NCBI GenBank assembly: GCA_965645705.1
Contig: CBFFWQ010000011.1
Coordinates: 64,001 to 125,036, forward strand
Length of the DNA: 61,036 nucleotides
From: an uncultured Lachnospiraceae bacterium
Lineage (GTDB): Bacteria > Bacillota > Clostridia > Lachnospirales > Lachnospiraceae
Reading direction: 5' to 3'
A program made the translations under genes and the position numbers. The notes beneath the pieces were generated by a model. The model was not told the DNA's origin, did not search any database, and worked only from the letters and a program-made list of their open reading frames with translations. The number at the start of each line of letters is the position of its first letter. Positions within the stretch are counted from its first letter, which is position 1. Of the stretch, positions 29,960-54,070 are shown piece after piece.

Positions 29960-30150
29960 TTCAGGATTTTCCCCAGAATTTCAAACACCACTTTGCAACA
30001 AATTACCCCCACATTACTGAATACTCTTCTGGCAAAAAATCATCTTCTTTCCTTTCTAAAAATTTTTACATCAAAATACCTATTTATTCTTGAATGATAC
30101 GCCTTTGCTCAAATAAAATCATCATACCTAATTTCTGTAAAATTAACCAT
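29960..30150 (-). repeat. Degenerate, internally deleted tandem duplicate of the 29600-29905 unit
   Basis: Near-identical strings (caccactttgcaa...cccccacattactgaata...ctttctaaaaatttttacatcaaaatacct...gatgatacgcctttgc...aaataaaatcatcat...cctaatttc) with a ~70-bp deletion and point changes. Confidence 0.6.
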
Positions 30151-30384
30151 AGTAAAAACTCATTTACTATTTTAATGGATCTCTCATATAATGAAGACGT
30201 AATTTACCTCTTGTTCTTGCATCATACTGCATACCACCTATTAGTATCTCTACATCAGCAGAATCATTATTAGGTTCAATTTATTTTAATACTTTTTTAC
30301 ATTAAAATAAATACTTTGCTTAATAATTTTTCTTTACAAAATAATCTATAATCTAAAGTGTGGAGTTCTGTTATAAAAACCACA

Positions 30385-36094: not shown

Positions 36095-36266
36095 AGAAAC
36101 ACCTGCCTATACTATCAACTAAAAGATTAGTAGTTTCCACTCTACGAAAACTAAAGCTTGTAGATAAAAACAAAAAAGTTATTGTAATTTCGAAGTGCAA
36201 AATACAATAACCTTAAAAATCGTTATACCTACTAAGTATAACGATCTATTACTACAATTCTAAACC

Positions 36267-38114: not shown

Positions 38115-38252
38115 AAACAAATTCTCCTTTCTTGAATGCAATAGAAACTGTACAAAAAATAAATTTATAAATGTAACAAAAATGAACCTTGTTACACCCA
38201 TACAATTAAAATAACCTAAAGCTTGAAAGTACATCAATGCCTACTTCAACTT

Positions 38253-38346: not shown

Positions 38347-39141
38347 CTATTCTAAGAATGAAAATATAGGAAGTGCCTTTGAATTCGTATTTTCATTATT
38401 AGCTTTTGTACTATCTATTAATCCTTCAACAGTTTTTTTATACCAATCCTGTTCAACTTTAAAATATAAAATTAAATCTTCAAAAATTCCCATTTTCTGT
38501 GCTTTATTTATTGCAGTAATATACTGTAATTTATTAGAATCCCTTACAATAAAAGGAATCAAATTATTATTAAGGCACTCACGAAATAAGAGCATCCGTC
38601 CTGTTCTACCATTACCATCTTGAAAAGGATGTATGGCTTCATATAAAGCATGAAACTCAGCTAAGTCATCTAAGGTTTTATTAGAATTTCCATAACGTTC
38701 TAATAATTTTCTCATTGCTGCAGGAACATCTTTTGGTAGTATAGTTTGAATATCATTTACGACATTTGCACGTGTCTTATAATCCCCAATAGCATATCCA
38801 TTAGCTATATCCTCAAAAACCCCTTGTTTCAATATTTTATGAAAGTTCTTAATTAATTCCTCAGATAAGTTATCTTCCAATGTTTTAAGCATAAAATTAA
38901 ATAATGCAAAATGTCCAGATGTTTCTTCAATATCTTTAGCTCGGTAAATGCCATCTGCATAAATAGTTCCTGTACTAAATAAAGAAGCAGTTTGATCCTT
39001 ACTCAACTTGCTACCTTCTATTTTGTTTGAATTATAAGCAAACTCTCTTTGAGTAAAACCGTAAACTCCGCTACGAATTTCATGTTCTTTTTCTTGAATT
39101 AAAGCAGTTAATAACAATTGATTAAAATCATTCATATGCAA
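38347..39141 (-). CDS. fic: Fic-domain AMPylase with an N-terminal inhibitory helix
   Basis: Fic motif HPFQDGNGRTGR. Inhibitory motif S-x-x-x-E-G (SNKIEGS) upstream of the Fic core (class II arrangement). Confidence 0.85.
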   Translation of the reverse strand: MHMNDFNQLLLTALIQEKEHEIRSGVYGFTQREFAYNSNKIEGSKLSKDQTASLFSTGTIYADGIYRAKDIEETSGHFALFNFMLKTLEDNLSEELIKNFHKILKQGVFEDIANGYAIGDYKTRANVVNDIQTILPKDVPAAMRKLLERYGNSNKTLDDLAEFHALYEAIHPFQDGNGRTGRMLLFRECLNNNLIPFIVRDSNKLQYITAINKAQKMGIFEDLILYFKVEQDWYKKTVEGLIDSTKANNENTNSKALPIFSFLE

Positions 39142-39587: not shown

Positions 39588-41192
39588 CTAAAGTGTATAC
39601 AGAGAATCATCACCTTCGCCATACTGTGCTTCCAAAGAAGCAATTGCTTGATCAGCATCCAGTACCTCTTGAAAATCACCGCCCTGCAACGACTCATCAT
39701 AAACAAAACCACAAACATCAAAGAACTTTTTCATTGTGATTCTATACGTAATAGGTCTTGCTCTACGCTTATGAACTTCTATCTGTATTAAGTTCTGCAA
39801 ACGCAAAGTTTCATTCTCACGCAAAATGATACACATATCAGACTCTGCTTCCAAAGTCTGACTTTCTCTCGTTGTTGGTACATCTTTTGGTACATCTTGG
39901 TCACGCTGTAAATAGTACCTTGCTTCGGAGCTAGGGTGTGATGTAACCAAAACACACACTGGATAATTCCTCTTAAAGTTACGCAGACATACTGACAGCT
40001 TATCTATATTTTCTTTCTTTGTACTTCTCGGACCTTCTAATAAAGCAAGTGAATGGTCAACTACCAGTACATCAAACTTTATCCGATTATAATCAGCCAC
40101 CAATTCCTCACCCAAATTGTCATAATGATAAGCTTCTCTCAAATTGATATTTCCACTTTCCATTGTACTCATAATAGACATTCGTATTACCTTACTTACT
40201 TCATCACCATAATCATCTGGATTCTTAACCATATCTGGAGTAATGAATTTTCCATACTCCTGCCATACATAATTCACAATGATTAAAGCCCATACTTGGG
40301 CTTCTGTATTTTCAGAATACATAAACAGTACACGATACCCTGCACGCAACACTCTGACCACTGTATGTATACAAAGCATGGTTTTACCAACACCTGCGGA
40401 TGCTACAATACTATACAGTTTATTTCGCAATAAAGGAGTTTCATCGTCTAGATCTGGAATACCCCATAAACAAACGGGAATAAACGTCATTCTCAAATCC
40501 TCTTGAATCTTCTGAACGTCTGATAAACTTTTAATAGATACTACATTGTTTGCATTATCTATGTCGTCAATACGATTACGAATCTCTATCGAAGCTAAAG
40601 AAGTGTAACGTAGCCAATCTTCGCTACCTCCATAAGTCTCTCTGCCAATTCTTATCTGTCCGACAAGAATCTTGCCTTGCAACTTAACAGTATCTTCTCC
40701 TGCCTTACGAAGAAATGCGGATTTATACAAGGGCATAGAGTTAATGATAGAATCTGATTCCTGAGCTAAAACGAAACAATTATCATACAACTCGATAGTA
40801 CGAGAATAAATAATCTCTGCCGCTTTCTCTCTGACAACACCATTCGATAAATCGGAATCCATAGCCTCGCTATCAAGAAACTCCTTCATACGCACAAAGG
40901 AATTAATTGTCAAATCAAACGCATTATCTTCGACAATCTGTTTTACAATTTCTTTTGTTGCATAAGGCTTGTAATCAACCAAACCTAAGGCAATCTGATT
41001 CATTTGATTTAGTACACTAAGAAGTGTATAGTATTCCATATTAAACTCTTCCAATTTAATATAGCTGAAAACACAATCCATTACTGTTGAAAACATTCCT
41101 GGATTATAATTCTTATGTGGAAGTGCTGCACTAATAAATGTATTTACAACACCCATCAAATACTCGTCCTGTAAAACATTCAAATAGATCAA
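39588..41192 (-). CDS. DnaB-like/RecA-fold ATPase (replicative-helicase C-terminal-domain-like)
   Basis: Walker A SAGVGKTMLCIHTVV...VLFMYSENT; Walker B VLVVDHSLAL; CVLVTSHPS. Confidence 0.5.
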   Translation of the reverse strand: MIYLNVLQDEYLMGVVNTFISAALPHKNYNPGMFSTVMDCVFSYIKLEEFNMEYYTLLSVLNQMNQIALGLVDYKPYATKEIVKQIVEDNAFDLTINSFVRMKEFLDSEAMDSDLSNGVVREKAAEIIYSRTIELYDNCFVLAQESDSIINSMPLYKSAFLRKAGEDTVKLQGKILVGQIRIGRETYGGSEDWLRYTSLASIEIRNRIDDIDNANNVVSIKSLSDVQKIQEDLRMTFIPVCLWGIPDLDDETPLLRNKLYSIVASAGVGKTMLCIHTVVRVLRAGYRVLFMYSENTEAQVWALIIVNYVWQEYGKFITPDMVKNPDDYGDEVSKVIRMSIMSTMESGNINLREAYHYDNLGEELVADYNRIKFDVLVVDHSLALLEGPRSTKKENIDKLSVCLRNFKRNYPVCVLVTSHPSSEARYYLQRDQDVPKDVPTTRESQTLEAESDMCIILRENETLRLQNLIQIEVHKRRARPITYRITMKKFFDVCGFVYDESLQGGDFQEVLDADQAIASLEAQYGEGDDSLYTL

Positions 41193-42538
41193 TCACGACC
41201 ACCACCTATCAATTCATTGGCAACATCTGTAACAGCTGTATACTCCACATTTACAATATCTTTGACTAACTGAGTAAGTGGCAGAATGCTATCTCTAAAA
41301 TACTCTACTTCCTCTGACTCGGCTACCATCATGAAATACACATCTAAAGTTTTCGTATACAGACCACGATAAGCACGACCTACTACCTGATCTACATTAA
41401 TAGTCAATTCGTAAAACAATACATACTCGCAGTCCAAATTTAATGCCTCTTCTACAGAGGTGATTACTACGTCATACTTACCATGTTTATTAAATTCCTT
41501 CATCACGCAATTACGTTCTTTTAAAGACGTATAACCATTAATACAAGCATACTCAATACCTGCCTGCTTCAAAAACGGCAATACAAATTCTCGTACTTCA
41601 TGCATCCTTACATACACAATTCCACGTCTATGCTGATTCTTTTGACTAACAATAAGATTAACCAAGGCTACTACAGAATTAATCGCACCTTGACCTTTAC
41701 AAATTAAAGAACGGTCAACACGTTTTGCACGCTTCTGATGATCTAAAGCTGGCACAATTACAGGAATTCCTCGCACACAGGAATCAAAACCTAAATCTTT
41801 CCTTGTTCTTTGAATAAAAAAACAAGGGTCACAATCGAAACTAATCTCATGACGAGTTAATTGTCTGTTAAGTCTCTCTGGATTAGGATACTTATCAGGA
41901 TCAAGCATACAAGCCAATCGTACAAATTGATCTAAAGAGGATACGATTGGTGTCGCTGTAAGTGCCCACTTATACTCAAAATGATTACACACTCCACGCA
42001 ACATACCTGCTGTACTTGCTTTATGAACATTATTAAGATTGTGGGCTTCGTCAATAATAAGAGCATTAAAATCATTTTTATACTTGAAAATAAGTCCCAT
42101 TAAATCACGATTGCCCAAACACTGATGAGTTAGCATCAATACACTACAACGTAAAAAGTCACCGCTTTCAAACAGAGTTTGTAAACTCTTTTGAGTGGCA
42201 TTACTCGACTCTACCCTCAATCCAGTTAATTTTTCTACATCAGCAGGGGTTTGTGATAACTGGTTATTCTTTACAAACATCAGCACCCTGCTTTCTGGAT
42301 TCAATAAGTAAAGCCATCTTATCAATGCTGACGCAATATAAGTTTTGCCTGTACCAGTTCCATACATACACAATGCAGTTTTGCGTGCCATCATCTTAAC
42401 CACATCTAAAGCCTGCAAAGGGTGAAGTGTTTCTTCATTAACAAAAAGTCCAATAACTTCCTCTAAGTTAACAGCATCTAATAACTCTTTCTCAAACGAA
42501 GTTAATGACCACTGGCTTACAATTTCCTCATTACTCAC
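41189..42538 (-). CDS. SF2 DEAH-box helicase
   Basis: Motif I YGTGTGKTYIA; motif II LIIDEAHNL; motif VI QVVGRAYRG. Confidence 0.7.
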   Translation of the reverse strand: MSNEEIVSQWSLTSFEKELLDAVNLEEVIGLFVNEETLHPLQALDVVKMMARKTALCMYGTGTGKTYIASALIRWLYLLNPESRVLMFVKNNQLSQTPADVEKLTGLRVESSNATQKSLQTLFESGDFLRCSVLMLTHQCLGNRDLMGLIFKYKNDFNALIIDEAHNLNNVHKASTAGMLRGVCNHFEYKWALTATPIVSSLDQFVRLACMLDPDKYPNPERLNRQLTRHEISFDCDPCFFIQRTRKDLGFDSCVRGIPVIVPALDHQKRAKRVDRSLICKGQGAINSVVALVNLIVSQKNQHRRGIVYVRMHEVREFVLPFLKQAGIEYACINGYTSLKERNCVMKEFNKHGKYDVVITSVEEALNLDCEYVLFYELTINVDQVVGRAYRGLYTKTLDVYFMMVAESEEVEYFRDSILPLTQLVKDIVNVEYTAVTDVANELIGGGRD

Positions 42539-43619: not shown

Positions 43620-44552
43620 CTAAACAAGTTCGTATTTCTGTATAAACAACTTAAGTTCCTTTTCAAAATCTTTCGTAGCATCTTTAGTAATGGCTTTGTC
43701 ATTAGAGGCAAAAAGTTCTAGAATATCTTCTACGCACTCTTGACTATTTGGCAACATACCTTCTACTGAATCAATTAAATCTTTATAACCTGCTTCACTT
43801 AATAGAGTAAAAAATGGATCTGCTAACGATGGATACTTCTCAAAAATAGTAAGTTTTGGTTCATAGCGTTCTACAATACTATGAACGTTCTCAATGACAA
43901 TCTCAACACTATCTTCTAAATAAGATAAAGCTTCATTGACGCACTCATCTAGAACTAGTTCACCTTGCTTAGGACTATCAATAAATGCATTCGATGGTTT
44001 TGCTACACCATCTATGCCATCTTCCGCCTCAGAACTATTCAGAGTGGCGTATGATTTATCAATCTGAAAATCTTTCCACAAGAAACAACCAAGAGTACTA
44101 ATTAACTCTAGCACTTCCTCCTTAAGAATTTCAAAATCTTCCTCACTGATACTGTATGTGGATACTACTATTTCCGCATTATCACAAAATTTCTGTAATA
44201 GAGCCGTATCTGTCATAACCTCTTCACTTTCCTGTACTTCACCATCACTACTGTATAAATTAGAACTTCTATCAATAAAAGCTCTATACATCAATCGAAA
44301 TCTATAAGGTGCAGTAGGACACAACTTATTAATATAAGTAATCACATTAGACGATAATGCAAACTGGCACCCTGCTAAAGAATCCAATAAATCACAATCA
44401 TAAGAATCATCCTGCTCGTATTCTTCCATTAAATTAATAACTTCCATCAGCTTTATCATAATGGTATACGCTTCACAAAAGGTTTGTGAGGAAACTGCCC
44501 TATCACAACCACCTAACGACATATCAACTACATGATTAATCAACTTTGCCAT
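43620..44552 (-). CDS. Hypothetical protein
   Basis: Start moved to MAKLINHV, preceded by GGAGG. Confidence 0.5.
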   Translation of the reverse strand: MAKLINHVVDMSLGGCDRAVSSQTFCEAYTIMIKLMEVINLMEEYEQDDSYDCDLLDSLAGCQFALSSNVITYINKLCPTAPYRFRLMYRAFIDRSSNLYSSDGEVQESEEVMTDTALLQKFCDNAEIVVSTYSISEEDFEILKEEVLELISTLGCFLWKDFQIDKSYATLNSSEAEDGIDGVAKPSNAFIDSPKQGELVLDECVNEALSYLEDSVEIVIENVHSIVERYEPKLTIFEKYPSLADPFFTLLSEAGYKDLIDSVEGMLPNSQECVEDILELFASNDKAITKDATKDFEKELKLFIQKYELV

Positions 44553-44628
44553 CTTTAAAACCCTCCTTAGAATTTTACATACACGATAAATAGCACACAA
44601 TAAATTTACAGTTTACAGACCTAAAGGA

Positions 44629-45624
44629 TCATAATGCCAAGCACTCGAATCCACCAAAGGAGTCCACTGAGAAACTACTAAAAGTATCTTCAACTTCCAT
44701 TACACTCTTTTTAAAACGCTTTTTTGTAGCCTCACTAAAACTTAGCATTTCTTTTTGTTCATCACTCAATTCAGCTAAGAAATCCTTATAATTTTTAACT
44801 TCTTCTTCTGGAACTTCTTCTACCATTTTTTCCGCTTTCATCTGAGTTTCAGTAATCTGCTCAATAATCTGCAATGGATCATCTAAAGGAGCATTAAGCT
44901 TAAAGCCATCTGGTAATGAAACGGATGAAGCGGGAGTTTCAGAAACAACGGGAGCTGGAGAAACAACGGGAGCTGGAGGCGGTGAAACAGGAGCTTCAGA
45001 GACTGGAGCAACGAGACCATGCACCATATCACTATCTGAATCATCTAACTCATCTGAATCTTCTTCAACACCTTTCAAATTATTTAATACAGCTTTCTTG
45101 GAAGAATTTATTATTTTGGGTGGTGCTGGTGGTGCTGGGACAGGCTCACTATCCTCTAACTTTTTCTTTTCCTCTACAATGGGAGGAGTAGGAGGCAACG
45201 GAACTTTCTCTGCCTCTGCCTCTGATTCAAACTTCGATTTAGGCTTCTCAGACTCCTCCTCTGGCTTTGGTAACAAATTCTCAGCAGTCTTATAAATACT
45301 GAGATCGCTTATTTCATACCATGCATAAACACCGAGTAACCCAATAAAAGCTACAATCTGCAAAATAATAGGATTCTTTCCTGTAAACAAATTAAACCGA
45401 CCTAAAGAAATCAACCGCACTGCATTCAACACAATATCCAATAAATTGAACACCATTGCTGCTATCAAAATTGATTCTATATTTTTCTTAGAAAAGAAAG
45501 GTAATTTAGTTGCAACCTCTCCGACTAACCTAGATGGTGCTCTGATCACCTTCACGATAATAGTCTTAATGGCATTCGTGCCATCAAACGAACCATCATC
45601 ATACTCTTTTTCTGTATACCTCAT
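44629..45624 (-). CDS. Membrane protein with a Pro/Val/Ser-rich repetitive segment
   Basis: TM helices plus PVSEAPVSPPPAPVVSPAPVVSETP, encoded by 18-bp tandem repeats at 44940-45010. Confidence 0.5.
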   Translation of the reverse strand: MRYTEKEYDDGSFDGTNAIKTIIVKVIRAPSRLVGEVATKLPFFSKKNIESILIAAMVFNLLDIVLNAVRLISLGRFNLFTGKNPIILQIVAFIGLLGVYAWYEISDLSIYKTAENLLPKPEEESEKPKSKFESEAEAEKVPLPPTPPIVEEKKKLEDSEPVPAPPAPPKIINSSKKAVLNNLKGVEEDSDELDDSDSDMVHGLVAPVSEAPVSPPPAPVVSPAPVVSETPASSVSLPDGFKLNAPLDDPLQIIEQITETQMKAEKMVEEVPEEEVKNYKDFLAELSDEQKEMLSFSEATKKRFKKSVMEVEDTFSSFSVDSFGGFECLAL

Positions 45625-45750: not shown

Positions 45751-46281
45751 TTAATACAAATAATCAACATCTTCAATAAAATCAAGGCATTCACACTCCT
45801 TTATTTTACTAATACGACCATGACTTACTTCAAAAATCATAATAAACAGACGGTCAGGTTCTACACAATTGGACTCAATACGATACAATACGTACTTATC
45901 TGTAGCCTCTACTACATTAATTATACTCTTGTTTCCATAATACCGTACATACGTATACAACTGTCTATTCTCGTTATCAATCGTAAGACCAGCATAGGTA
46001 TCTTCATCCATAATCTGAGCAAGACGTTTTTGATTTTCTTGTACCTCATCTAAAGAATCGAAGTCATACATCAGCATAACCGCTTCTACACCTAAAGTTC
46101 TCTTCAAGGAAACACTTGCTGAACTCAAAAAAAATACCACAATAGAAATTAATGCAGCAACAAAAACAAGTACACGCAATCCAATCCACACCACGGACAC
46201 AACGGATACTTTAGAATCCGCAGAGAAATCATCATACTCTTCTTCACTCTTTGCCATGCTATCAATCCTTTGCAAAAGCAT
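45751..46281 (-). CDS. Membrane-anchored hypothetical protein
   Basis: TM helix plus a C-terminal domain. Confidence 0.45.
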   Translation of the reverse strand: MLLQRIDSMAKSEEEYDDFSADSKVSVVSVVWIGLRVLVFVAALISIVVFFLSSASVSLKRTLGVEAVMLMYDFDSLDEVQENQKRLAQIMDEDTYAGLTIDNENRQLYTYVRYYGNKSIINVVEATDKYVLYRIESNCVEPDRLFIMIFEVSHGRISKIKECECLDFIEDVDYLY

Positions 46282-46855
46282 TCACTGTTTCTGCTTGTTC
46301 TACAAAATCATCCTCAGATGCAGTCAACCGCTCATCCTTTGGGTTTGTGATACCCATCTTTAACATTTTCAGTGCTAAAGATTGTGGTAATTTCTGTACA
46401 CTGTACTTCAATTCACCTATTTTCTCATGAATAGTGTATTCACCTGAAACGCTATTAATAAGTGCCCGACCTAAAGTAGAGTCTGTAGAAAGAACCCTCT
46501 TCCGTGGATCAGGATCTCTAGTATCACCCTCATAGTCCACACGAAGAATACGTGGGACAAACTTAGGATCAACAGGGGACAACAAATTAATAAGTACAAA
46601 AGAGCCAACTCCTATTCTCGGACCATCATCAGGCGGAATAACTGTTAATGAAGGAGACGAAATTTTATTTCGTAATTCCTTAATACGAAATGACGTTTTA
46701 TCACACGCCATACGAGCTGCCTCATATTCAGCATTCTCAGATAAATCACCTAAAGCACGAGCTTCTTCCTTCTCAACATTCTGTTTTTCTAAAAGTTTCT
46801 CTAATTCGAATAATTCCGCCTTATACTCTTCCAACTGGAAAGATGAAATTTCCAT
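46262..46855 (-). CDS. greA: GreA/GreB-family transcript cleavage factor homolog
   Basis: ARALGDLSENAEYEAAR (E. coli GreA: AREHGDLKENAEYHAAR). C-terminal FKBP-like LSTDSTLGRALINSVSGEYTIH (GreA: VNSPIARGLIGKEEDDVV). Confidence 0.8.
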   Translation of the reverse strand: MEISSFQLEEYKAELFELEKLLEKQNVEKEEARALGDLSENAEYEAARMACDKTSFRIKELRNKISSPSLTVIPPDDGPRIGVGSFVLINLLSPVDPKFVPRILRVDYEGDTRDPDPRKRVLSTDSTLGRALINSVSGEYTIHEKIGELKYSVQKLPQSLALKMLKMGITNPKDERLTASEDDFVEQAETVNAFAKD

Positions 46856-46856
46856 G

Positions 46857-47645
46857 CTATTCTCCTTTCATTTTCTCCCGATAATCAGTAAACCTAATTA
46901 CTACAGGATACTTCAACGGATTGTCAACTTCATTCACATCTAAAGCAGATGATTTGATGGCATCAAAAGAACGCCCCCAATCTCTTTTACTCATCGTTTC
47001 AAGCGAATAACGTGACATGAAAAAAGTCGGTAGTCCTTTACGACTCCGCTTATCCAATAAATCTTCTATGATCATATATGCCTCTTCACGGTACACAGTT
47101 TTTATTACTGTTACAAATACAACATCAGCCGATACATACTCATCATAAGTTACGCCTAATAATTCCTTCATCTGCTTATCTGCTGATGGACGGTCAGCTG
47201 CCAGTGTACACAATCGCTTGACTTCTTGTGTGTCAAGCAATGGTGCAACTGTAAAACCTTTTAAAGAAGCATACTGCATACAACTATACGCAAAGGTTAT
47301 TTTACCAAACTTAGGTGGTGCGATAATTATCGCAGACTTTGTAGGTATTCGACCATTAGCAAACAACGTATGAATCTTTTCCAACTGATCAACTACAAAT
47401 AAAAAATACTGATTAGAAAGTAGCTCAGCGTGCGTAGTTATTAAAAATTCTTTATTCCATGAAACACCTACATACTGATCTGGAATACGCTTCAGCTTTG
47501 AAGTAATTAACAAGTTTTTCTTTGTTTCTGGATCTTGAATCAAATTAAAACTTGTCCCTGTCTTTTTCTTACCACAGGTCGGACAATCCTTATCTGGAAA
47601 ACCATGCCCACCGCAATCAAAGCATACTCTTGTTTCTTTACTCAA
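46857..47645 (-). CDS. Zinc-ribbon + P-loop-like protein (possible DnaC/IstB-like loader)
   Basis: N-terminal CFDCGG...CPTCG. IIAPPKFGKITFAYSCMQYASLKGFTV resembles an IstB/DnaC Walker A region but deviates from it. Confidence 0.3.
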   Translation of the reverse strand: MSKETRVCFDCGGHGFPDKDCPTCGKKKTGTSFNLIQDPETKKNLLITSKLKRIPDQYVGVSWNKEFLITTHAELLSNQYFLFVVDQLEKIHTLFANGRIPTKSAIIIAPPKFGKITFAYSCMQYASLKGFTVAPLLDTQEVKRLCTLAADRPSADKQMKELLGVTYDEYVSADVVFVTVIKTVYREEAYMIIEDLLDKRSRKGLPTFFMSRYSLETMSKRDWGRSFDAIKSSALDVNEVDNPLKYPVVIRFTDYREKMKGE

Positions 47646-48035
47646 CCTCTTTACCCCTTTCTAAAGGAATTGCATAAAATAAATTCACACTTATTTCTAT
47701 ACTTACAAAATGTAAAATCTTACGAATAAAATAGCAACCCCATCACAATACCTGCAAAGAATTACAGGCTTGTTCGTATTACCATTAACAATTCTCTGCA
47801 GTACCTATTATTACACCATATAACGATAGTAACACGATACATTTTGTATTGTTTTCTTATGCTTGTAAATACTGGAATACAACAAGGAGAGACAACAATT
47901 TACTACAGAACCCAGTCATAAAACAGTAAAACTCACCAGCACACCAAGTATTATGACTGCCTTCATACCAAACAACAGTACTTTAAAGTCACAATACACA
48001 AAATCGTGCAGCAGTATTAATACTACACGACTAAA

Positions 48036-48614
48036 CTAAAGTAAACCTTGCCTGAATCTTTCCATCAAGTATTCGTACTCTTTCGGAATACCGTAATACA
48101 ATTCTCGATAAATAATATCTCTATCTATTGCTGAACTCTCAGATTCTACCTGACGTATACGAGTATACAGCTCTGAGGCATGGACGACTTCTTTGCAAGA
48201 ACTTCTGATTCTACAAGAGTCAGGAACAACTACAAAATTATGAACCATTACCCAGACACCAAATCTATCAAAAATAAACTTTTTAATAAACCTGATATGA
48301 GCAAGATTCTGATGTATCGGATTATGAATTGTAAGAATACGAGGATTCCTTGCCCGACCGAGCCATTCGTAATCTCGAAACTCCCCTTTAATAAAGGAAG
48401 GAAAATCTTTAGATTCTATGGAATAAATAGCGTGATTTGTAATGGCAATAATATCCACTTCTGTTTCATGTGCTGGTAAATACCAACAAAAAAATTTCTG
48501 TCCTGCCAAAATTAAAGCAGATGGTTCTGCATTAGAAATACACTGAGCAATTGCCATCTCACACGTAGTTCCTACGAATTTTACATTTTCTCTATCCATG
48601 GAGAAATCCTCCAT
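48036..48614 (-). CDS. NERD-domain protein
   Basis: VDIIAITNHAIYSIESKDFPSFIKGEFRDYEWLG...HNPIHQNLAHIRFIKK fits the NERD pattern. Confidence 0.5.
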   Translation of the reverse strand: MEDFSMDRENVKFVGTTCEMAIAQCISNAEPSALILAGQKFFCWYLPAHETEVDIIAITNHAIYSIESKDFPSFIKGEFRDYEWLGRARNPRILTIHNPIHQNLAHIRFIKKFIFDRFGVWVMVHNFVVVPDSCRIRSSCKEVVHASELYTRIRQVESESSAIDRDIIYRELYYGIPKEYEYLMERFRQGLL

Positions 48615-48637: not shown

Positions 48638-49624
48638 CTAATAATCTTTACTAAAATAATGGTCTTTGTATTTAAACAAAGGCTTGCAATCACTATGATA
48701 GCCATACATTTTAAAATAGATGGCATTCTGTGCCTCATTAATACCATCTTCTAATGCTTCAATTACTTTTTCAATATCTTCTTTTTCATCCCTAGAAAGT
48801 TTTCCATAAGCCGTCTCGTAAGTACCATTAGATACGGGAGAAAACTGATGAGGTGAAAATACTACTTCTTCTACACTCTTTTTATAACGTACACACCTAT
48901 TGCGAATAACTTCTCCTACATACTGCATACCAGTGAATCCTTGATCACCAGCTTCTGCAGCAATAATTTTCCTTAAAATAGACTTATCATCTTCAGAATA
49001 AGTCACCTTCAAATCTTTACTATAAGAAGAAGTTTCATCTAAAGGACTCTTATTGGAAACTGCTTTAGCTTTCTCTGCTGCTATAGTAGCTTCTTTAGCC
49101 TCTTTTTCTGCTTCCTTAGCAGCTTTTTTAGCCTCTTCAGCTTCTCGTTGTGCTTTCAATTTTTTAGCTTCTGCTTCCTTAATCTTCTCCTCCAGCTTAC
49201 TCCTTGCTTTCTCAGAAGAACGCAATTGTTCTTCCATCTCCGATAACTTCTGTTCAGCTAAAGAAAGTTCCAGCTTCTTCGCAAGCTTCTCATCTTGCAA
49301 AGCTTCTTCTTCTACCTGATTATAAAAATCATCATCAATGACAGGACTTGCCTGCCTTCCATCCGAAATCTCTGTAACAAGACGAGTTGATTGAACTGCA
49401 GAACCGGTAACCAAATCTAAAGGACTCTGTTGCTCTGCAATCAAGCTATCAAGTGAATTCATGTAATCCACTTTGACAATACGAACGCTTGCATACCGTT
49501 CTCTCTCGCTCATGTTTTCGTCAGCGTAAATATCTGTAACACTGAACAAACAAAAAGAGGTCGCAACAATACAGGGTACTGCTGCCACCAAAAGCATCTT
49601 ACTAAGTTCCCTCATAAAGCACAC
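48638..49624 (-). CDS. Secreted SleB/CwlJ-like (Hydrolase_2) cell-wall hydrolase with a coiled-coil linker
   Basis: Signal peptide; K/E/A-rich coiled coil; C-terminal IIAAEAGDQGFTGMQYVGEVIRNRCV...VVFSPHQFSPVSNG. Confidence 0.6.
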   Translation of the reverse strand: MCFMRELSKMLLVAAVPCIVATSFCLFSVTDIYADENMSERERYASVRIVKVDYMNSLDSLIAEQQSPLDLVTGSAVQSTRLVTEISDGRQASPVIDDDFYNQVEEEALQDEKLAKKLELSLAEQKLSEMEEQLRSSEKARSKLEEKIKEAEAKKLKAQREAEEAKKAAKEAEKEAKEATIAAEKAKAVSNKSPLDETSSYSKDLKVTYSEDDKSILRKIIAAEAGDQGFTGMQYVGEVIRNRCVRYKKSVEEVVFSPHQFSPVSNGTYETAYGKLSRDEKEDIEKVIEALEDGINEAQNAIYFKMYGYHSDCKPLFKYKDHYFSKDY

Positions 49625-49841: not shown

Positions 49842-50156
49842 CTAAAGGAAAGCATACACTTTCCTTGCGACTGTTTTAATTACAGGTTCAGGTCTGCTTA
49901 CATCTACCTCAAACGTTGAAATAGAATCTGGATCTGTAAACACCTTTAAAATGCTCTCACCGTAATTCTTGTGTCGAACACCATCGAAAGGAAACCCTTT
50001 TATCTTTCCTAAATCCTCTAGTGTCCTTGGTTGTGCTTTTAAAAGAGCCTCAATATCCTTATCACGATAAATTGTATAAGGAAGCGTCTTATTCGCTCCG
50101 ACTAGCTTAGATCTTAAATCCTTCAGTAACTTTCGTTGCTTAACTAAATCTGCCAT
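49842..50156 (-). CDS. HRDC-domain-like small protein
   Basis: DKDIEALLKAQPRTLEDLGKIKGFPFDGVRHKNYGESILKVF. Start moved to MADLVKQ after AAAAAGGAGAG. Confidence 0.45.
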   Translation of the reverse strand: MADLVKQRKLLKDLRSKLVGANKTLPYTIYRDKDIEALLKAQPRTLEDLGKIKGFPFDGVRHKNYGESILKVFTDPDSISTFEVDVSRPEPVIKTVARKVYAFL

Positions 50157-50275
50157 AATTCTCTCCTTTTTCAAAAATTGCAATGCCATAAAACATTGCA
50201 TACGTAATTTACAGTTTTTATTCCACGTGAAAAATACTATTTTCTTTTAAAAAAAAAAGAAAAAACATAATTTTT

Positions 50276-50405: not shown

Positions 50406-53400
50406 CTATCCCTTATACTTAATTAGCCAATAATACTTACAAGCACCACGTATCTCACTTTCTGAAAATGCCCGTGTACGGTTTACAGTCGAATACATAC
50501 CAGAATCACCGACACGAAACTTACCTTTTGAATAATCAAAAATCACAACGTAGTGACCACCTAAAGTAAACAGATTATTTTTAGAGCCACTCGCTGTACC
50601 AGACATAGAACAAATCAAAACACCTCCACTCCTGATATGCTTCTCAGCAGTCTTGATAAATTCATTGTCATCGAAATAAGGACTGCATTCATGCCGAGTA
50701 CAACTAAACTTACCAGGTGCCATTCCATCTAAAGTTCTTTTTATTGCTCCACCATCTTTATTGGTGAAATAAGATGTTGTACCTGATGCTAAATACTTAC
50801 TTCTCTGCCATGCTCCAATTTCACCAGGATTCAGTCTGCGGTCAACAAAGGTTGACAGAATCATGGAAAGAGAACAAGCACCACAAGCTTGAGCACTCAT
50901 TGTTTTATCGTAATACTTTTGATTCCACCAGGAACCTCCACCTATTTCCTTAGAACCTTGTCCTTGTTTATAATGTATGAACCATCCATCCAGTACATCT
51001 TTATTCCCAATTAATTCTGTAGTAATTTTACCTGTCACACTAAATTTATGCGAAGGATCTAACTCCCAATTCAGCATTTCTTTTGTAATACCATTTGTAG
51101 TATTAGAACCATAATTAATCGAACTGCCTTGTTTACCAGAATGAGTAACTCCCTGCTTCTTTTCTTTCTTAGCAGTCTGTTCACTCTCCTTTACAATAGC
51201 TTTTTCTTCCTCAGATACAGCACTCTGTGGAACTCCTAGCAAATGAACCCCATCTAAAGTAGTGTTAGAGGCTGAAGAAACACTATAAATAAACTGATTA
51301 TCCAACGACCTCGAAATACTAGAATCTTCCGATACTGCATAAGAATCTTGATACTCTAAAATCTTTGCAACATTTGACCTAAAGGAGACTCCCGACGCTT
51401 CCTGATTCTGTAATGATTGTGTAAGATTCTCATTCCCACCTGTATAGAAGCCGCCTTGATTCTCTAAACTTGCTGTTAAATTCGACACGTAATACGAAGC
51501 AATCGTATAATCATCTAAAGTAGTAGATACACTGGACTGCTGAATACTTGCACCAGATACAATGTCCTGCTCGTGAACATAGTTGTTATAATTCCTATTA
51601 GTAACACTTGAACCATTACTTGACACGCTACCACTACTGCTGCTTTCGCCTTTAGAATCAACCTCTTCACCCTTTGGTGAAGAATACTCAATCTTCCCAG
51701 AACTCGTAATAAATACAGTATTAAATTTTCCTGACTTATCCAATACTGTATTGCTAGAAGAATCTTGTAACTTCAACACTGTAAAATCAGCAGCATCGTT
51801 ACGAGTATACAAGCTAGTGCCGCTATCCGTACTATGGGCACCTATAGTCCAAAATCCACTTTTGTTTTTAGCTACAAAAATTTCTACATGACCTGATTTC
51901 CATAATACATCTCCTGGCTTCGCCTTACTATAATCTCCTTTGTCACTTGCTTTCAAATGACTGCTGCCACCAATGGTACTTGTAGTACCTAAAGGGAATC
52001 GGGAAAAATCGGGAGTGCCTCTTCCTACTAAACCGTAAGTCCAACTTACAAAACTAGAACAGTCAAAACCACTTACTACATACCTATTCACATCTTCTAT
52101 AGTCACTTTACTGAAATCCGTAGGATAGCTATGCCCACCACCCCATACATACTTAGGACGTAATTGTGTAAGCTCATAAGCCTGTATTAAAATAGCAACC
52201 CTGCGTGGTGTTAAATCTTCTTCCTTAATTCCGCATTTTGCATAAGCATTCGGTAAATACTCTGATAGCTTTACATTACTATCTATCGCTATAGATTCAG
52301 TACCTTTTGCATTCATTAAACTAAAGGAATACAACGAACTTTCTAACTCAACCGCCTCAAGTGCATGAGCCTTCGCAAGTTCATTTTGATAAGTAGAAGG
52401 ATCTGTTACCTTAACAGAATCAAGTCCACCTTTTTTCAATAGCCTTGCATAAACACCAGGACCTAAAAGAGAAGCCAAAGTGGACTCACCACAACACACA
52501 ATATCAATTCCCCATACATGAAAAGGAGTAGAACCATCAGAATAATTATGTGTGTATGCTTTTAACTGTGAATCGCTTACATAATACAAATAACCATAAA
52601 CTCTTCCGTTGGATACAAAATAAGGACAATCATCATAATCACTTGCAGTTCTATAAACCCGCTTTGTATCATCGGTACTTACCTTGATACCGTTTACTTT
52701 CTCTAAAGCTTCGTTAAGATACATACATCTTTTTTCCGCCAACTTTACAATCTCATCGTAAGAAGATACAAGATCTTCTGGGAACAAGGTATTCCATAAA
52801 TCCAAGCACTTAGACTGACCGCCGCTCGGATCTTTTAAAGTTTTCAAAGCACCTCTGCTAAGAAACCAATTATCTTCGTGAATTGCAAGCATCATGGCAA
52901 TAATGCGACCGTACTGAGGATCGGAAAACTTCGCAATCTCTCCTAACTGTTTCCCATGCGTCTCAATATACGCATCCAATAAATTTGACAGCTGTGATCC
53001 AGTACCTAACTTTTTCTCCTCAGAAATAGAACTGTATTTCACATAACTGCTTGTACCACCATTTGGATCATACGCAATCCCTGTACTAGCCATACTTACA
53101 CCGCCAAGACCTCTATTATGTGAAATTGCTACAAGTACAGAAGAAAGGGCAGGATTAACATCCTTTACATCTTTCAAATCTAAAGTACCTAAAGCCTCTG
53201 CATACTTCTCATCTAAAGCTGCAAGGTTATCCGCATAATTATAAACATCAGCGGAATCAGATTTATTGTATACGGACTTCCTGCCATATGTACCCCAATC
53301 TTCCATACAAAACGGACCATAATCTATTCCTGTCGTTAATCCGTTGCTTCCAAGAACATTCACACCTTTTTTTCCATAATTCTTTAATGTCATGTAATCT

Positions 53401-53936
53401 GCACTTAAATCTCCATACACTTTACCCCATTGATTAAAAGGAAGATAAGCTTTTAATACTCCATCACTGCTATAACCTGTTTCTGCACACTGAATACCCA
53501 ATATAGTTGAAACCGAAATATGCGTGGCAGCACTGCTTTTATACAAAGTGCCTTCTTGCGTTTCTCTGCACAAAGTAAGCATCTCTTTCACATAACTATC
53601 ACCCAGCTTATCAATCAATGATAAATTAAGATCTCCCGTTGATGTTTGACTATAGCTGGTATCAACACTCAAATTCTTTAACTTTGTTTCTGGAGTTACA
53701 TCTGTTAAACCAAAATCACTTACAGACTGATCAGAGCTATTTCCGAATACACTAACAACAGAATAATTCTGCGTGCCTCCACGAATGCTGTTTCTAAACA
53801 GAACTAAAGGGTCACTATCTGCCAACATAAAACACATTGGCACGCACGTAAGTAAAATGATGAAAGCTCCTGCTATGGTAAATGGATTCACCGTGGACTT
53901 ATGCCTAATCTTACGAATAAAAGCATTTCTTGTCAC
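50406..53936 (-). CDS. Large secreted multidomain peptidoglycan hydrolase (NlpC/P60 endopeptidase plus additional domains)
   Basis: N-terminal TM. NlpC/P60 motif YVWGGGHSYP...SGFDCSSFVSWTYG. C-terminal Cys-peptidase-like QACGACSLSMILS. Ser-rich linker. Confidence 0.65.
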   Translation of the reverse strand: MTRNAFIRKIRHKSTVNPFTIAGAFIILLTCVPMCFMLADSDPLVLFRNSIRGGTQNYSVVSVFGNSSDQSVSDFGLTDVTPETKLKNLSVDTSYSQTSTGDLNLSLIDKLGDSYVKEMLTLCRETQEGTLYKSSAATHISVSTILGIQCAETGYSSDGVLKAYLPFNQWGKVYGDLSADYMTLKNYGKKGVNVLGSNGLTTGIDYGPFCMEDWGTYGRKSVYNKSDSADVYNYADNLAALDEKYAEALGTLDLKDVKDVNPALSSVLVAISHNRGLGGVSMASTGIAYDPNGGTSSYVKYSSISEEKKLGTGSQLSNLLDAYIETHGKQLGEIAKFSDPQYGRIIAMMLAIHEDNWFLSRGALKTLKDPSGGQSKCLDLWNTLFPEDLVSSYDEIVKLAEKRCMYLNEALEKVNGIKVSTDDTKRVYRTASDYDDCPYFVSNGRVYGYLYYVSDSQLKAYTHNYSDGSTPFHVWGIDIVCCGESTLASLLGPGVYARLLKKGGLDSVKVTDPSTYQNELAKAHALEAVELESSLYSFSLMNAKGTESIAIDSNVKLSEYLPNAYAKCGIKEEDLTPRRVAILIQAYELTQLRPKYVWGGGHSYPTDFSKVTIEDVNRYVVSGFDCSSFVSWTYGLVGRGTPDFSRFPLGTTSTIGGSSHLKASDKGDYSKAKPGDVLWKSGHVEIFVAKNKSGFWTIGAHSTDSGTSLYTRNDAADFTVLKLQDSSSNTVLDKSGKFNTVFITSSGKIEYSSPKGEEVDSKGESSSSGSVSSNGSSVTNRNYNNYVHEQDIVSGASIQQSSVSTTLDDYTIASYYVSNLTASLENQGGFYTGGNENLTQSLQNQEASGVSFRSNVAKILEYQDSYAVSEDSSISRSLDNQFIYSVSSASNTTLDGVHLLGVPQSAVSEEEKAIVKESEQTAKKEKKQGVTHSGKQGSSINYGSNTTNGITKEMLNWELDPSHKFSVTGKITTELIGNKDVLDGWFIHYKQGQGSKEIGGGSWWNQKYYDKTMSAQACGACSLSMILSTFVDRRLNPGEIGAWQRSKYLASGTTSYFTNKDGGAIKRTLDGMAPGKFSCTRHECSPYFDDNEFIKTAEKHIRSGGVLICSMSGTASGSKNNLFTLGGHYVVIFDYSKGKFRVGDSGMYSTVNRTRAFSESEIRGACKYYWLIKYKG

Positions 53937-54070
53937 GTAACCACCTGCCTTTCAAGAAAGCAATAAACTCTACACTCATACAAGACAATACCCTGATGCC
54001 TGTCTAAAGATGTAACAGGGCATAAATAGAAAACTCCGATACCTATCTAAAGGCATCGGAGTACACAAAT

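What the first reader, a model, noticed from the sequence alone, without database searches (positions are those of the whole stretch)
46262..46855. GreA-family transcript cleavage factor on a mobile element, with a C-terminal extension
The GDLSENAEYEAAR coiled-coil signature and the FKBP-like domain are unmistakable, but the protein is about 40 aa longer than chromosomal GreA. It sits among unknown genes rather than in the housekeeping context. Accessory Gre-like factors (Gfh, TraR/DksA analogues) can act as RNAP secondary-channel regulators or inhibitors.
Basis: partly seen in the sequence, partly recalled or inferred. Interest (0 to 1): 0.5.

Follow-up and report, generated by a model that had tools for sequence, protein, structure and literature searches.

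The report
Megaplasmid-encoded GreA-like transcription factor
The gene is real and encodes a divergent GreA-type RNA-polymerase rescue factor with an intact catalytic tip, but it is not the host's housekeeping greA: it is a conserved core gene, next to a helicase-loader gene, of a large and poorly described family of roughly 200-385 kb plasmid-like elements of gut Clostridia.

Summary
The ORF at 46262..46855 (-), 197 aa, is a real Gre-family protein. Pfam GreA_GreB_N scores 44 bits. An AlphaFold model matches GreA, GreB and Gfh1 over both domains. The tip (ARALGDLSENAEYEAAR) is identical to the GreA consensus, and D37/E40 align with E. coli D41/E44.

It is not the host greA. It scores far below the NCBIfam GreA cut-offs (62 vs 139 bits) and is at most about 35-40% identical to any GreA in 185,579 species genomes.

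In 8 of the 9 divergent relatives whose contigs I checked, it sits in the same block: VirB4-like ATPase, NlpC/P60 hydrolase, HRDC, NERD, DnaC/DnaI-like loader, Gre-like gene, membrane proteins, SNF2, DnaB-like, Hsp70, DnaG-like. These contigs reach 385 kb and include a cultured Clostridia isolate.

Selection on the core is very strong (32 synonymous vs 1 non-synonymous change, omega about 0.007).

The extension has two parts: a short helix conserved across the subfamily, and a 30-aa acidic, disordered tail. Similar acidic tails recur across the wider family.

Most likely it is an active anti-backtracking factor that works on host RNA polymerase for a co-directionally organised megaplasmid. An inhibitor role is not excluded. 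It is a new variant of a known kind, of moderate interest.

The parts
46262..46855 (-). Gre-like gene, 197 aa plus stop
   Evidence: ORF. Pfam GreA_GreB_N 44 bits. NCBIfam greA 62 bits, below the cut-off of 139. AF2 and Foldseek match GreA/GreB/Gfh1. omega 0.007 over residues 1-167 against L002.
46631..46855 (-). N-terminal antiparallel coiled coil (aa 1-75)
   Evidence: AF2 helices 5-34 and 42-66. Pfam match spans residues 7-66.
46724..46747 (-). Coiled-coil tip DLSENAEY (D37-Y44), carrying the two catalytic acidic residues D37 and E40
   Evidence: Aligned to E. coli GreA D41/E44. The D, E and N equivalents are invariant in all 150 best representatives.
46385..46630 (-). Divergent C-terminal globular (RNAP-binding type) domain, aa 76-157
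   Evidence: PF01272 scores only 13.4 bits, but the fold matches the GreA/Gfh1 C-terminal domain. Subfamily-specific 'RILRLDxEGxT..P..RVL' insertion, and the SP of the canonical SxxSP motif is replaced by ST.
46355..46384 (-). Extra C-terminal helix (aa 158-167), conserved in the subfamily
   Evidence: AF2 helix 158-167. Aligned 'LxxDEAxK'-type segment in P0002 and P0050-P0056.
46265..46354 (-). 30-aa acidic tail (aa 168-197, net charge -5), predicted disordered; overlaps the downstream gene's start
   Evidence: pLDDT below 50 for residues 182-197. Charge computed. omega 0.10 overall and 0.29 for residues 180-197. Among the closest relatives it is present only in P0001, but acidic tails recur in the wider family.
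46862..46868 (-). Shine-Dalgarno AAAGGAG inside the 3' end of the upstream gene; stop TAG, then 1 nt, then ATG
   Evidence: Read directly from the sequence.
46857..47645 (-). Upstream partner gene: zinc ribbon (CxxC..CxxC) plus a DnaC/DnaI/IstB-type AAA+ helicase-loader fold, 262 aa
   Evidence: AF2 pLDDT 84. Foldseek: 6qem_G DnaC E 2e-7, IstB, DnaI 2w58. C8/C11/C21/C24, K115, D174 and R200 are invariant. It lies immediately upstream of the Gre-like gene in L001, L002, L085, L088, L089, L093 and L097, and a protein of similar size (not aligned here) takes that place in L102 and L103.
45751..46281 (-). Downstream 176-aa membrane protein, overlapping the Gre-like gene by 20 nt
   Evidence: ORF. 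A gene of similar size follows the Gre-like gene in the related loci, also in L095, where the upstream gene differs and the 153-aa protein resembles the window's by eye.
47841..47869 (-). Promoter-like site upstream of the loader/gre unit (weak evidence)
   Evidence: Consensus scan, 9 of 12 matches; the number of sites in the region is not above the shuffle expectation.
48002..48032 (-). Terminator-like hairpin just after the NERD gene, separating it from the loader/gre unit
   Evidence: 12-pair stem; terminator-like sites are enriched over shuffles (10 found vs 3.8 expected).
39588..42538 (-). SNF2-family helicase (41189..42538) and DnaB-like replicative helicase (39588..41192) of the same conserved block
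   Evidence: Pfam. Syntenic in the related loci.
35429..38237 (-). Hsp70-like protein (36267..38237) and DnaG-type zinc-ribbon protein (35429..36094)
   Evidence: Pfam. Syntenic.
50406..56071 (-). Transfer-like module: P-loop ATPase of VirB4/DUF87 type (54071..56071) and a 1176-aa NlpC/P60-type cell-wall hydrolase (50406..53936)
   Evidence: Walker A GKSGxGKT. Some family members hit PF01935 or PF19044. Weak tblastn matches to Bacillus and Paenibacillus plasmid proteins, none to phages. Pfam for the hydrolase.
22492..23202 (-). Element-encoded sigma-70-family factor, a second transcription-machinery gene on the element
   Evidence: Sigma70_r2 27.5 bits, above its gathering score of 24; r4 below threshold.

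Best explanation
The gene encodes a functional, divergent Gre-type transcript-cleavage (anti-backtracking) factor. It belongs to a very large plasmid-like element, not to the host chromosome. Its C-terminal domain would dock on the host RNA polymerase. Its coiled coil would enter the secondary channel, and D37/E40 at the tip would position the catalytic Mg2+ and water so that backtracked RNA is cleaved and elongation resumes. The element has about 60 kb of genes all on one strand, co-oriented with the strand's G-richness (inferred to be replication direction). It also carries its own helicase loader, DnaB-like helicase, primase-like protein and sigma factor. For such an element, the factor would keep long co-directional transcription units moving and remove backtracked polymerases that block its replication forks. 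The extra C-terminal helix and acidic tail probably add a partner contact or regulation specific to the element. Shown here: family membership, fold, intact tip, strong purifying selection, and conserved position in the element. Inferred: RNAP binding, cleavage activity, host RNAP as the target, the link to replication, and any role for the tail.
For: Fold and domains.

Tip: residues 32-48 (ARALGDLSENAEYEAAR) are identical to the consensus of 44 Gre sequences. D37/E40/N41/Y44 align with E. coli D41/E44/N45/Y48. The D, E and N equivalents are kept in 150 of 150 nearest cluster representatives.

Selection: against an 86-91% identical sister element there are 32 synonymous and 1 non-synonymous changes in residues 1-167, omega 0.007. 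The tail also stays in frame, omega 0.10.

Expression signals: strong SD and translational coupling to the upstream gene.

Core-gene status: the same gene order holds in contigs of 121, 158, 213, 233, 310, 326, 333 and 358 kb, with Gre-like proteins down to about 32% identity to the window's.

Replication neighbourhood: the upstream gene has a DnaC/DnaI-type loader fold. DnaB-like, SNF2, Hsp70 and DnaG-like genes lie downstream.

Co-orientation: every ORF of at least 100 aa outside the IS element, apart from four short ones that overlap longer minus-strand ORFs, is on the minus strand, and GC skew is uniform at about -0.26.

No RNAP beta-prime DFDGD motif occurs in any frame of the window.

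Background: Gre factors rescue backtracked RNAP, and backtracked RNAP is toxic to replication forks (PMC13296718, PMC4598747).
Against: There is no biochemical evidence. Acidic tip residues are necessary but not sufficient: Gfh1 keeps them and inhibits rather than cleaves (PMC4598747). The C-terminal domain is strongly diverged (13 bits on PF01272; the P of the canonical SxxSP motif is replaced by T; a 2-residue insertion), so RNAP docking could be altered. The host is not identified directly. Only 61 kb of a 285 kb or larger element was examined, so an element-encoded polymerase elsewhere is not excluded. The link to replication rests on gene neighbourhood only. The promoter prediction is no better than chance.
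Confidence: 0.6

Rival explanations
1. It is a cleavage-incompetent secondary-channel competitor or regulator, working like Gfh1, Rv3788 or TraR. It occupies the host RNAP channel, displaces host GreA (or another channel-binding factor), and so reprogrammes or dampens host transcription in favour of the element. The acidic tail could modulate binding.
For: Plasmid-borne secondary-channel regulators exist: TraR on F and related plasmids (PMC2613031, PMC9239242, PMC4598747). Gfh1 keeps acidic tip residues yet inhibits (PMC4598747). The C-terminal domain is diverged and there are extra C-terminal segments. The predicted fold matches the Gfh1-RNAP complex as well as it matches GreA.
Against: The whole 17-residue tip, not only D and E, is identical to the consensus of genuine GreA proteins. 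It is invariant across very divergent family members, which fits a retained catalytic role. omega of 0.007 shows constraint but does not discriminate between the two readings.
Confidence: 0.2
2. It is a cofactor for a polymerase encoded by the element itself, somewhere outside this window.
For: The element carries its own sigma-like factor. It is large enough (285-385 kb) to hide further transcription genes. Most of its proteins have no detectable family.
Against: No DFDGD-type motif occurs in the 61-kb window. No RNAP domain was found in any ORF scanned here or among the Pfam families on record for the genes of the related loci, though many of those genes have none. A sigma-70-type factor implies use of the host core enzyme.
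Confidence: 0.05
3. It is simply the host's housekeeping greA, and the region is chromosomal.
For: Intact tip. The best non-family matches are Lachnospiraceae GreA proteins.
Against: It scores 62 bits against the 139-bit cut-off of the NCBIfam greA model, and is below every GreA equivalog cut-off. It is at most about 35-40% identical to the GreA regions recovered from 185,579 species genomes. The 61 kb contain no tRNA or Rfam RNA. The neighbours are a methylase-SNF2 protein typical of plasmids, a VirB4-like ATPase, an IS element, and Fic, PARG and NERD genes. The same block occurs on 121-385 kb contigs, two of nearly equal length (333,348 and 333,418 bp) with the gene at different coordinates.
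Confidence: 0.02
4. It is a decaying gene copy with a run-on C-terminus and no function.
For: The last 18 residues evolve faster (omega 0.29), and the tail is predicted disordered.
Against: Core omega is 0.007, with 32 synonymous changes against 1 non-synonymous. Synteny is conserved across deep divergence. The SD is strong.
Confidence: 0.01

Closest known systems
GreA (bacterial transcript-cleavage factor; E. coli GreA, PDB 1grj)
   Same: Two-domain architecture: an N-terminal coiled coil and a C-terminal globular domain. The tip motif GDLSENAEY is identical, with D37/E40 matching D41/E44. The core length is comparable. The predicted fold superposes over 156-159 columns.
   Different: Only about 32% identity to E. 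coli GreA, and 35-42% over partial alignments to the best ordinary GreA proteins. Below the NCBIfam and Pfam C-terminal-domain thresholds. Shorter N-terminus ('MEIS'), loss of the RP motif in helix 1, an insertion in the C-terminal domain, and the P of SxxSP replaced. Extra C-terminal helix plus acidic tail. Encoded as a core gene of a large extrachromosomal-type element next to a helicase loader, not in a housekeeping locus.
Gfh1 (Thermus/Deinococcus) and Rv3788 (M. tuberculosis): Gre homologues that inhibit RNAP
   Same: Gre fold. They are accessory paralogues present alongside a housekeeping GreA. Gfh1 keeps acidic tip residues. The Foldseek match to the RNAP-Gfh1 complex (3aoi_X) has TM 0.77.
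   Different: There is no specific sequence relationship. The PDB sequence search finds GreA, a GreA/Gfh1 chimera and GreB, but not Gfh1 itself. The tip here is the canonical GreA motif. Those proteins are chromosomal and lineage-specific. Inhibitory activity is untested here.
TraR / DksA family (F-plasmid TraR, lambda Orf73)
   Same: The concept is the same: a mobile element encodes its own RNAP secondary-channel-binding factor within or next to transfer genes, to act on host RNAP (PMC2613031, PMC9239242).
   Different: Unrelated fold class (zinc-finger DksA type, 73 aa). TraR acts at initiation and does not stimulate cleavage. Its hosts are Proteobacteria. The resemblance is functional analogy only, not membership.
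Large extrachromosomal elements of Bacillota described recently: 'Hodor' conjugative megaplasmids (PMC12934698) and 'Inocle' (PMC12340149)
   Same: Size class (hundreds of kb). Bacillota hosts in human-associated microbiomes. [quoted passage not shown] T4SS-like genes and surface-protein genes. Inocles have low GC (32%), IS elements and a GC-skew replichore structure.
   Different: Hodors have 45-47% GC, against 35% here. Inocles are assigned to oral Streptococcus, whereas the relatives here carry Lachnospiraceae and Anaerotruncus labels. Neither paper mentions a Gre factor. Whether this element belongs to either group was not tested with marker genes.

Membership tests
GreA/GreB family (Pfam PF03449 + PF01272) | N-terminal antiparallel coiled-coil domain (GreA_GreB_N) | tested here: met
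   PF03449 44.1 bits against a gathering score of 24.5. AF2 helices 5-34 and 42-66.
GreA/GreB family (Pfam PF03449 + PF01272) | Two conserved acidic residues at the coiled-coil tip (E. coli D41, E44) | tested here: met
   D37 and E40 align with D41 and E44. They are invariant in 150 of 150 nearest representatives.
GreA/GreB family (Pfam PF03449 + PF01272) | C-terminal globular RNAP-binding domain (GreA_GreB, PF01272) | tested here: inconclusive
   By sequence it is below threshold: 13.4 bits against 26.9. By predicted structure the whole protein superposes on GreA, GreB and Gfh1, TM 0.69-0.79. The P of the SxxSP motif is replaced by T.
GreA/GreB family (Pfam PF03449 + PF01272) | Binds the RNAP secondary channel and stimulates endonucleolytic transcript cleavage | not testable with these tools
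   Needs biochemistry with backtracked elongation complexes.
Housekeeping GreA (NCBIfam TIGR01462 and NF0012xx equivalogs) | Score at or above the curated equivalog/subfamily cut-off | tested here: not met
   Best score is 62.2 bits against a cut-off of 139. All 10 Gre models are below their cut-offs.
Housekeeping GreA (NCBIfam TIGR01462 and NF0012xx equivalogs) | Chromosomal, single-copy housekeeping context | tested here: not met
   The context is plasmid-like genes. The gene is absent as a close homologue from GTDB species genomes. It is syntenic on 121-385 kb contigs.
Gfh1-type inhibitory Gre homologues | Lack of cleavage stimulation; inhibition of catalysis; pH-dependent domain flip | not testable with these tools
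   Only fold similarity was seen. Gfh1 itself is not among the phmmer matches to PDB sequences.
DksA/TraR family | DksA C4-type zinc finger with coiled coil (TraR: single helix) | tested here: not met
   No DksA/TraR family hit in Pfam or NCBIfam. The protein has no cysteine cluster, and its fold is Gre-type.
Known anti-phage defence systems (PADLOC) | Match of the Gre-like protein or its immediate neighbours to a defence-system model | tested here: not met
   No hit for the NERD, loader-like or Gre-like proteins or the five downstream proteins. Only generic SNF2 and HRDC hits.
Tailed phage genome | Phage hallmark proteins, or similarity to known or predicted viral contigs | tested here: not met
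   No PHROG hit for 11 proteins. No megablast match to 50,697 phage records. No relatives of three core proteins in IMG/VR. The ATPase has no tblastn hit in phages. Only 61 kb of the element was examined.
Conjugative plasmid of Bacillota | T4SS ATPase (VirB4), cell-wall hydrolase, coupling protein, relaxase, replication/partition genes | tested here: inconclusive
   A VirB4/DUF87-like ATPase is supported only through distant family members (PF01935, PF19044) and weak plasmid hits. An NlpC/P60 hydrolase is present, as is a plasmid-typical methylase-SNF2 protein. No relaxase, coupling protein or Rep/Par genes were seen in the window.

The most novel reading that the evidence does not exclude
A Gre-type factor with a family-specific C-terminal acidic module is a core, vertically inherited gene of a large and essentially undescribed superfamily of 200-385 kb elements of gut Clostridia. 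Its tail tethers it to the element's own replication machinery (DnaC/DnaI-like loader, DnaB-like helicase or Hsp70). In this way it clears backtracked host RNA polymerases ahead of the element's forks, in a genome where nearly all genes are co-directional. This would be an element-encoded, replisome-coupled device for resolving transcription-replication conflicts.
Probability: 0.12. Interest if true: 0.75.

Novelty: new variant of a known kind. Interest (0 to 1): 0.45.

Why it matters
Secondary-channel factors carried by mobile elements are so far known mainly from the DksA-like TraR family of proteobacterial plasmids and phages. In the searches I ran, I found no paper describing a true Gre-fold factor kept as a core gene by very large plasmid-like elements of gut Clostridia.

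If it is active, very large elements supply their own anti-backtracking activity together with their own sigma factor and replication proteins. That bears on how megaplasmids sustain long co-directional operons and avoid transcription-replication conflicts.

If it is inactive, it would be a plasmid-borne analogue of the Gfh1 and Rv3788 inhibitors. Either outcome can be tested with standard cleavage assays.

The recurrent acidic C-terminal module is a defined, unexplained feature, and it can be probed by truncation. The host element family (up to 385 kb, present in at least one cultured isolate) also deserves a description of its own.

Tried and rejected
1. Host greA or chromosomal region: rejected (and the synteny calls).

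2. Known phage or plasmid: megablast of 12 kb found nothing in the phage or plasmid collections. tblastn of the protein found only ordinary GreA at 31-38% identity.

3. PHROGs gave no hit for the Gre-like protein or for 10 large neighbours.

4. IMG/VR scans with three core proteins gave no relatives.

5. PDB sequence searches for the 666-aa ATPase and the 262-aa neighbour, single and as profiles, gave nothing significant. The neighbour was resolved only by structure prediction.

6. PADLOC: no defence-system membership.

7. Rfam and tRNA scans of the window found nothing.

8. A search for an RNAP catalytic motif in all six frames found nothing.

9. I first thought the long tail was unique to the window's lineage. 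This was revised after inspecting the tails of the 150 best representatives.

It was repeated with database homologues.

11. Literature searches for plasmid-, phage- or megaplasmid-encoded GreA found no direct precedent. The word-start search 'grea' also matched 'great', so those counts are meaningless.

12. The HiBC megaplasmids are unrelated to this element.
Full report
**1. The observation**

An ORF of 197 codons with an ATG start lies at 46262..46855 on the minus strand. Only four sense codons lie upstream of the ATG in the open frame. The upstream gene's TAG stop, one nucleotide, and then the ATG follow each other directly. A strong AAAGGAG Shine-Dalgarno sequence sits at 46862..46868.

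The protein matches Pfam GreA_GreB_N at 44.1 bits against a gathering score of 24.5. It matches the C-terminal family PF01272 at only 13.4 bits against 26.9. NCBIfam GreA and GreB models match over residues 5-155, but far below their curated cut-offs; the best is TIGR01462 at 62 bits against 139. PHROGs gives nothing.

The best solved relative by sequence is E. coli GreA (1grj, E 2e-6). That alignment places query D37 and E40 on GreA D41 and E44.

An AlphaFold2 model built on 44 sequences has mean pLDDT 79.6. It shows helices 5-34 and 42-66, a beta-rich domain, a further helix at 158-167, and a low-confidence end with pLDDT below 50 for residues 182-197. Foldseek against the PDB returns GreA, the Gfh1-RNAP complexes, GreB and the GreA/Gfh1 chimera as the top hits. 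These cover 156-159 aligned columns with TM 0.69-0.79 on the target.

The one qualification is that the C-terminal domain is recognisable by fold, not 'unmistakably' by sequence.

**2. It is not the host greA**

- A search of 5.8 billion proteins found only two close relatives. P0001 is 97% identical and 198 aa. P0002 is 41% identical and 165 aa. Everything else is ordinary GreA at 30-45% over partial lengths.
- A scan of one genome for each of 185,579 species found nothing better than about 35-40%. Lachnospiraceae GreA proteins were at the top.
- IMG/VR holds no relative. Annotated phage and plasmid collections hold only ordinary GreA at 31-38%.
- The window has 35% GC. Every ORF of at least 100 aa outside the IS element, apart from four short ones that overlap longer minus-strand ORFs, is on the minus strand. 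GC skew is uniform at about -0.26.
- The window has no tRNA and no Rfam RNA.

**3. Gene content of the window**

| Coordinates | Product |
|---|---|
| 3..4265, running off the window end | methyltransferase-SNF2 protein of at least 1,421 aa; 38-44% identical homologues on more than 2,000 plasmid records |
| 9153..10772 (+) | IS transposase |
| 12296..13066 | transglutaminase-like |
| 14014..14832 | PARG-like |
| 16027..18102 | protein with six Big_2 domains |
| 22492..23202 | sigma-70-family factor |
| 31281..31799 | S26 signal peptidase |
| 35429..36094 | DnaG-type zinc ribbon |
| 36267..38237 | Hsp70 |
| 38347..39141 | Fic |
| 39588..41192 | DnaB-like helicase |
| 41189..42538 | SNF2 helicase |
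| 48036..48614 | NERD |
| 48638..49624 | SleB-type hydrolase |
| 49842..50201 | HRDC |
| 50406..53936 | 1,176-aa NlpC/P60 protein |
| 54071..56071 | P-loop ATPase |

Distant members of the ATPase family hit DUF87 and P-loop_TraG, which points to a VirB4-like protein. Its only annotated relatives are hypothetical or DUF87 proteins on Bacillus and Paenibacillus plasmids. One lies near a C40 peptidase and an FtsK/SpoIIIE protein. There is no match in phages.

**4. A conserved block on very large contigs**

I looked up the contigs of nine Gre-like cluster representatives (P0001, P0002, P0050, P0051, P0052, P0055, P0056, P0058, P0075, P0089 among them, of very different divergence) and of one neighbour protein.

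The order recurs: two proteins of about 430 aa, the 659-aa ATPase, the big hydrolase, HRDC, hydrolase, NERD, a protein of about 250-280 aa, the Gre-like gene, a membrane protein of about 150 aa, four or five unknowns, SNF2, DnaB-like, Hsp70, DnaG zinc ribbon.

It occurs on contigs of 121, 158, 213, 233, 310, 326, 333 and 358 kb. The identical neighbour protein P0255 occurs on a contig of up to 385 kb.

Two independent assemblies of 333,348 and 333,418 bp carry the gene at different coordinates. This suggests a complete circular molecule, but that is an inference and was not verified.

The window's own ATPase (98% identical, P0201) is on a 285-kb contig.

One relative is in the genome assembly of a cultured isolate labelled Anaerotruncus sp. 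1XD22-93 (a 206-kb contig). Another is in a Lachnospiraceae MAG.

The one exception is a hyper-acidic 274-aa relative, P0097. It has a different upstream neighbourhood on a short contig.

The Gre-like gene is therefore a vertically inherited core gene of a diverse family of very large elements. I call these elements plasmid-like for three reasons: VirB4-like and cell-wall-hydrolase genes, a plasmid-typical methylase-helicase, and no phage signal in PHROGs, the phage records or IMG/VR. No relaxase, coupling protein or rep/par genes were seen in this window, so the call is provisional.

**5. The immediate neighbour**

The 262-aa protein encoded directly upstream is translationally coupled to the Gre-like gene. 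It has four invariant cysteines (CxxC..CxxC) and invariant K115, D174 and R200. Its AlphaFold model has pLDDT 84.

Foldseek puts it with DnaC in the DnaB-DnaC complex (6qem_G, E 2e-7), IstB, DnaI and related AAA+ loaders. From my own knowledge, an N-terminal zinc-binding region is a feature of Firmicutes DnaI.

The Gre-like gene thus lies inside a replication-type module, between the loader and the SNF2, DnaB-like, Hsp70 and primase-like genes. A terminator-like hairpin follows the NERD gene, and a weak promoter-like site precedes the loader gene. The promoter scan is not above chance.

**6. Is the protein functional?**

The sister element (L002/L003) is 86-91% identical in DNA.

| Region (residues) | Synonymous | Non-synonymous | omega |
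|---|---|---|---|
| 1-167 | 32 | 1 | 0.007 |
| 168-197 | 10 | 6 | 0.10 |
| 168-179 | 6 | 0 | 0 |
| 180-197 | 4 | 6 | 0.29 |

Residues 32-48 (ARALGDLSENAEYEAAR) equal the consensus of 44 Gre sequences. D37, L38, E40, N41 and Y44 are invariant in an alignment that includes E. coli GreA. In the 150 best representatives from an exhaustive HMMER search of 1.84 billion proteins, the D, E and N equivalents are present in all 150.

This argues for a retained catalytic role. Still, Gfh1 also keeps acidic tip residues and is an inhibitor (PMC4598747), so activity must be shown experimentally.

**7. How it differs from ordinary GreA**

- The N-terminus is shorter ('MEIS...').
- The conserved R-P in helix 1 is lost.
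- The C-terminal domain has the motif 'RILRLDxEGxT..P..RVL' with a small insertion.
- 'SxxSP[IL]G' becomes 'STDSTLG'.
- There is a short extra helix after the last strand.

**8. The C-terminal extension**

Relative to E. coli GreA, the excess is a helix (158-167) and then 30 residues (168-197) with net charge -5, predicted disordered.

Among the closest clusters (P0002, P0050-P0056; 152-168 aa), only the helix is present.

In the wider set, 43 of 150 representatives extend at least 11 residues beyond the canonical end. Twenty-two share an 'F/YxxxY[PKL]' core, and 16 fit a two-helix pattern of the type 'K[IL]xxP[DN]xxxFxxxYP[SD][DE][DE]x[VI]Lxx[LF]F'. Two carry 130-150-residue tails with net charge about -30.

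Two motif-bearing or acidic-tailed members, P0075 and P0089, lie in the same gene block. MAFFT does not align the window's tail to that motif, so homology of the last 30 residues is open.

A C-terminal acidic appendage is therefore a recurrent family trait. Its partner is unknown.

**9. Mechanism**

The best-supported reading is an active Gre-type anti-backtracking factor that acts on host RNA polymerase for the element.

- The element supplies a sigma-70-type factor, which implies use of the host core enzyme.
- No beta-prime catalytic motif occurs in the window.
- Gre factors restart backtracked polymerase, and backtracked complexes are potent blocks to replication forks (PMC13296718, PMC4598747).
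- An element with tens of kilobases of co-directional genes, and a gre gene embedded among its replication genes, would benefit from this. That step is inference.

The main rival is an inhibitory or competing channel binder, with F-plasmid TraR as a conceptual precedent (PMC2613031, PMC9239242).

**10. Comparison with the literature and novelty**

The searches I ran returned no paper on plasmid-, phage- or megaplasmid-encoded Gre homologues.

Large Bacillota elements have been described recently: Hodor conjugative megaplasmids (PMC12934698; 45-47% GC, Rep_3, sortases) and Inocles (PMC12340149; about 32% GC, Streptococcus). Neither paper mentions a Gre factor. Membership of this element in either group was not tested.

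My rating is a new variant of a known protein kind, in an under-described element family, of moderate interest.

Noticed in passing
window 3..4265 (-), runs off the window start: A giant ORF of at least 1,421 aa with an N-terminal methyltransferase-like region and an SNF2 helicase. It has 38-44% identical homologues on more than 2,000 plasmid records, including pCW3-like C. perfringens plasmids, Streptococcus plasmids, and Monoglobus and Subdoligranulum plasmids of 300-500 kb.
   Followed up: partly
window 46857..47645 (-): A protein with no Pfam, PHROG or PDB sequence match turns out, by AF2 and Foldseek, to be a DnaC/DnaI/IstB-type AAA+ loader with an N-terminal four-cysteine zinc ribbon. 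Its Walker-A-like motif is unusual (APPxF[GS]K[VI]T). The family has at least 60 clusters, all unannotated.
   Followed up: yes
L089 and L090 (contigs of 333,348 and 333,418 bp); L097-L101 (206-358 kb contigs); (385 kb): The window belongs to a diverse family of very large elements found in many metagenomes. One neighbour protein occurs, with identical sequence, in 420 index blocks. The family is also present in the assembly of a cultured isolate (Anaerotruncus sp. 1XD22-93, GCA_003612655.1). It is absent from IMG/VR, and no close match was found in PLSDB. It appears largely undescribed.
   Followed up: partly
P0080 (294 aa), P0097 (274 aa; L105 4200..5024), P0088 (216 aa): Some Gre-like relatives carry 75-150-residue hyper-acidic C-terminal tails (net charge about -30 in the two longest) after a conserved 'FxxxYPSDDxxLxxYF' motif. 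The one context examined (P0097) lies next to a HipA_C kinase-like gene, not in the standard block.
   Followed up: partly
window 22043..23202 (-): A sigma-70-family protein (region 2 above threshold, region 4 weak) lies next to a small receiver-domain-like protein (weak hit). The element may carry its own transcription-initiation control.
   Followed up: no
window 36267..38237 (-) and 38347..39141 (-): A divergent Hsp70 (220 bits) is conserved in the element family between the DnaB-like helicase and the DnaG-like zinc-ribbon gene. A Fic-domain gene lies beside it in this window only.
   Followed up: no
window 9153..10772 (+): The only long plus-strand gene is a DDE transposase (DDE_Tnp_1_6 / DUF772), that is, an IS element inserted against the otherwise uniform gene orientation.
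   Followed up: no
window 14014..14832 (-), 12296..13066 (-), 11045..12259 (-), 16027..18102 (-), 31281..31799 (-): A cluster of accessory genes: a microbial PARG-like macrodomain protein, a transglutaminase-like protease, a PPIase-like protein, a surface protein with six Big_2 domains, and a type I signal peptidase. Together they suggest a secretion or surface module and ADP-ribosylation reversal.
   Followed up: no
window 29665..29901 (-) and about 30004..30176: A 78-aa ORF has a degraded tandem paralogue about 260-340 nt away (direct repeats of 46-85 nt at 83-94% identity). It lies in a 1.6-kb stretch without long ORFs.
   Followed up: no
window 44629..45624 (-) and 43620..44600 (-): Two conserved genes downstream of the Gre-like gene encode a membrane protein with a long proline- and acid-rich low-complexity region and a highly acidic 326-aa protein. 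Neither has a family match. Counterparts of similar size follow the Gre-like gene in the related loci.
   Followed up: no
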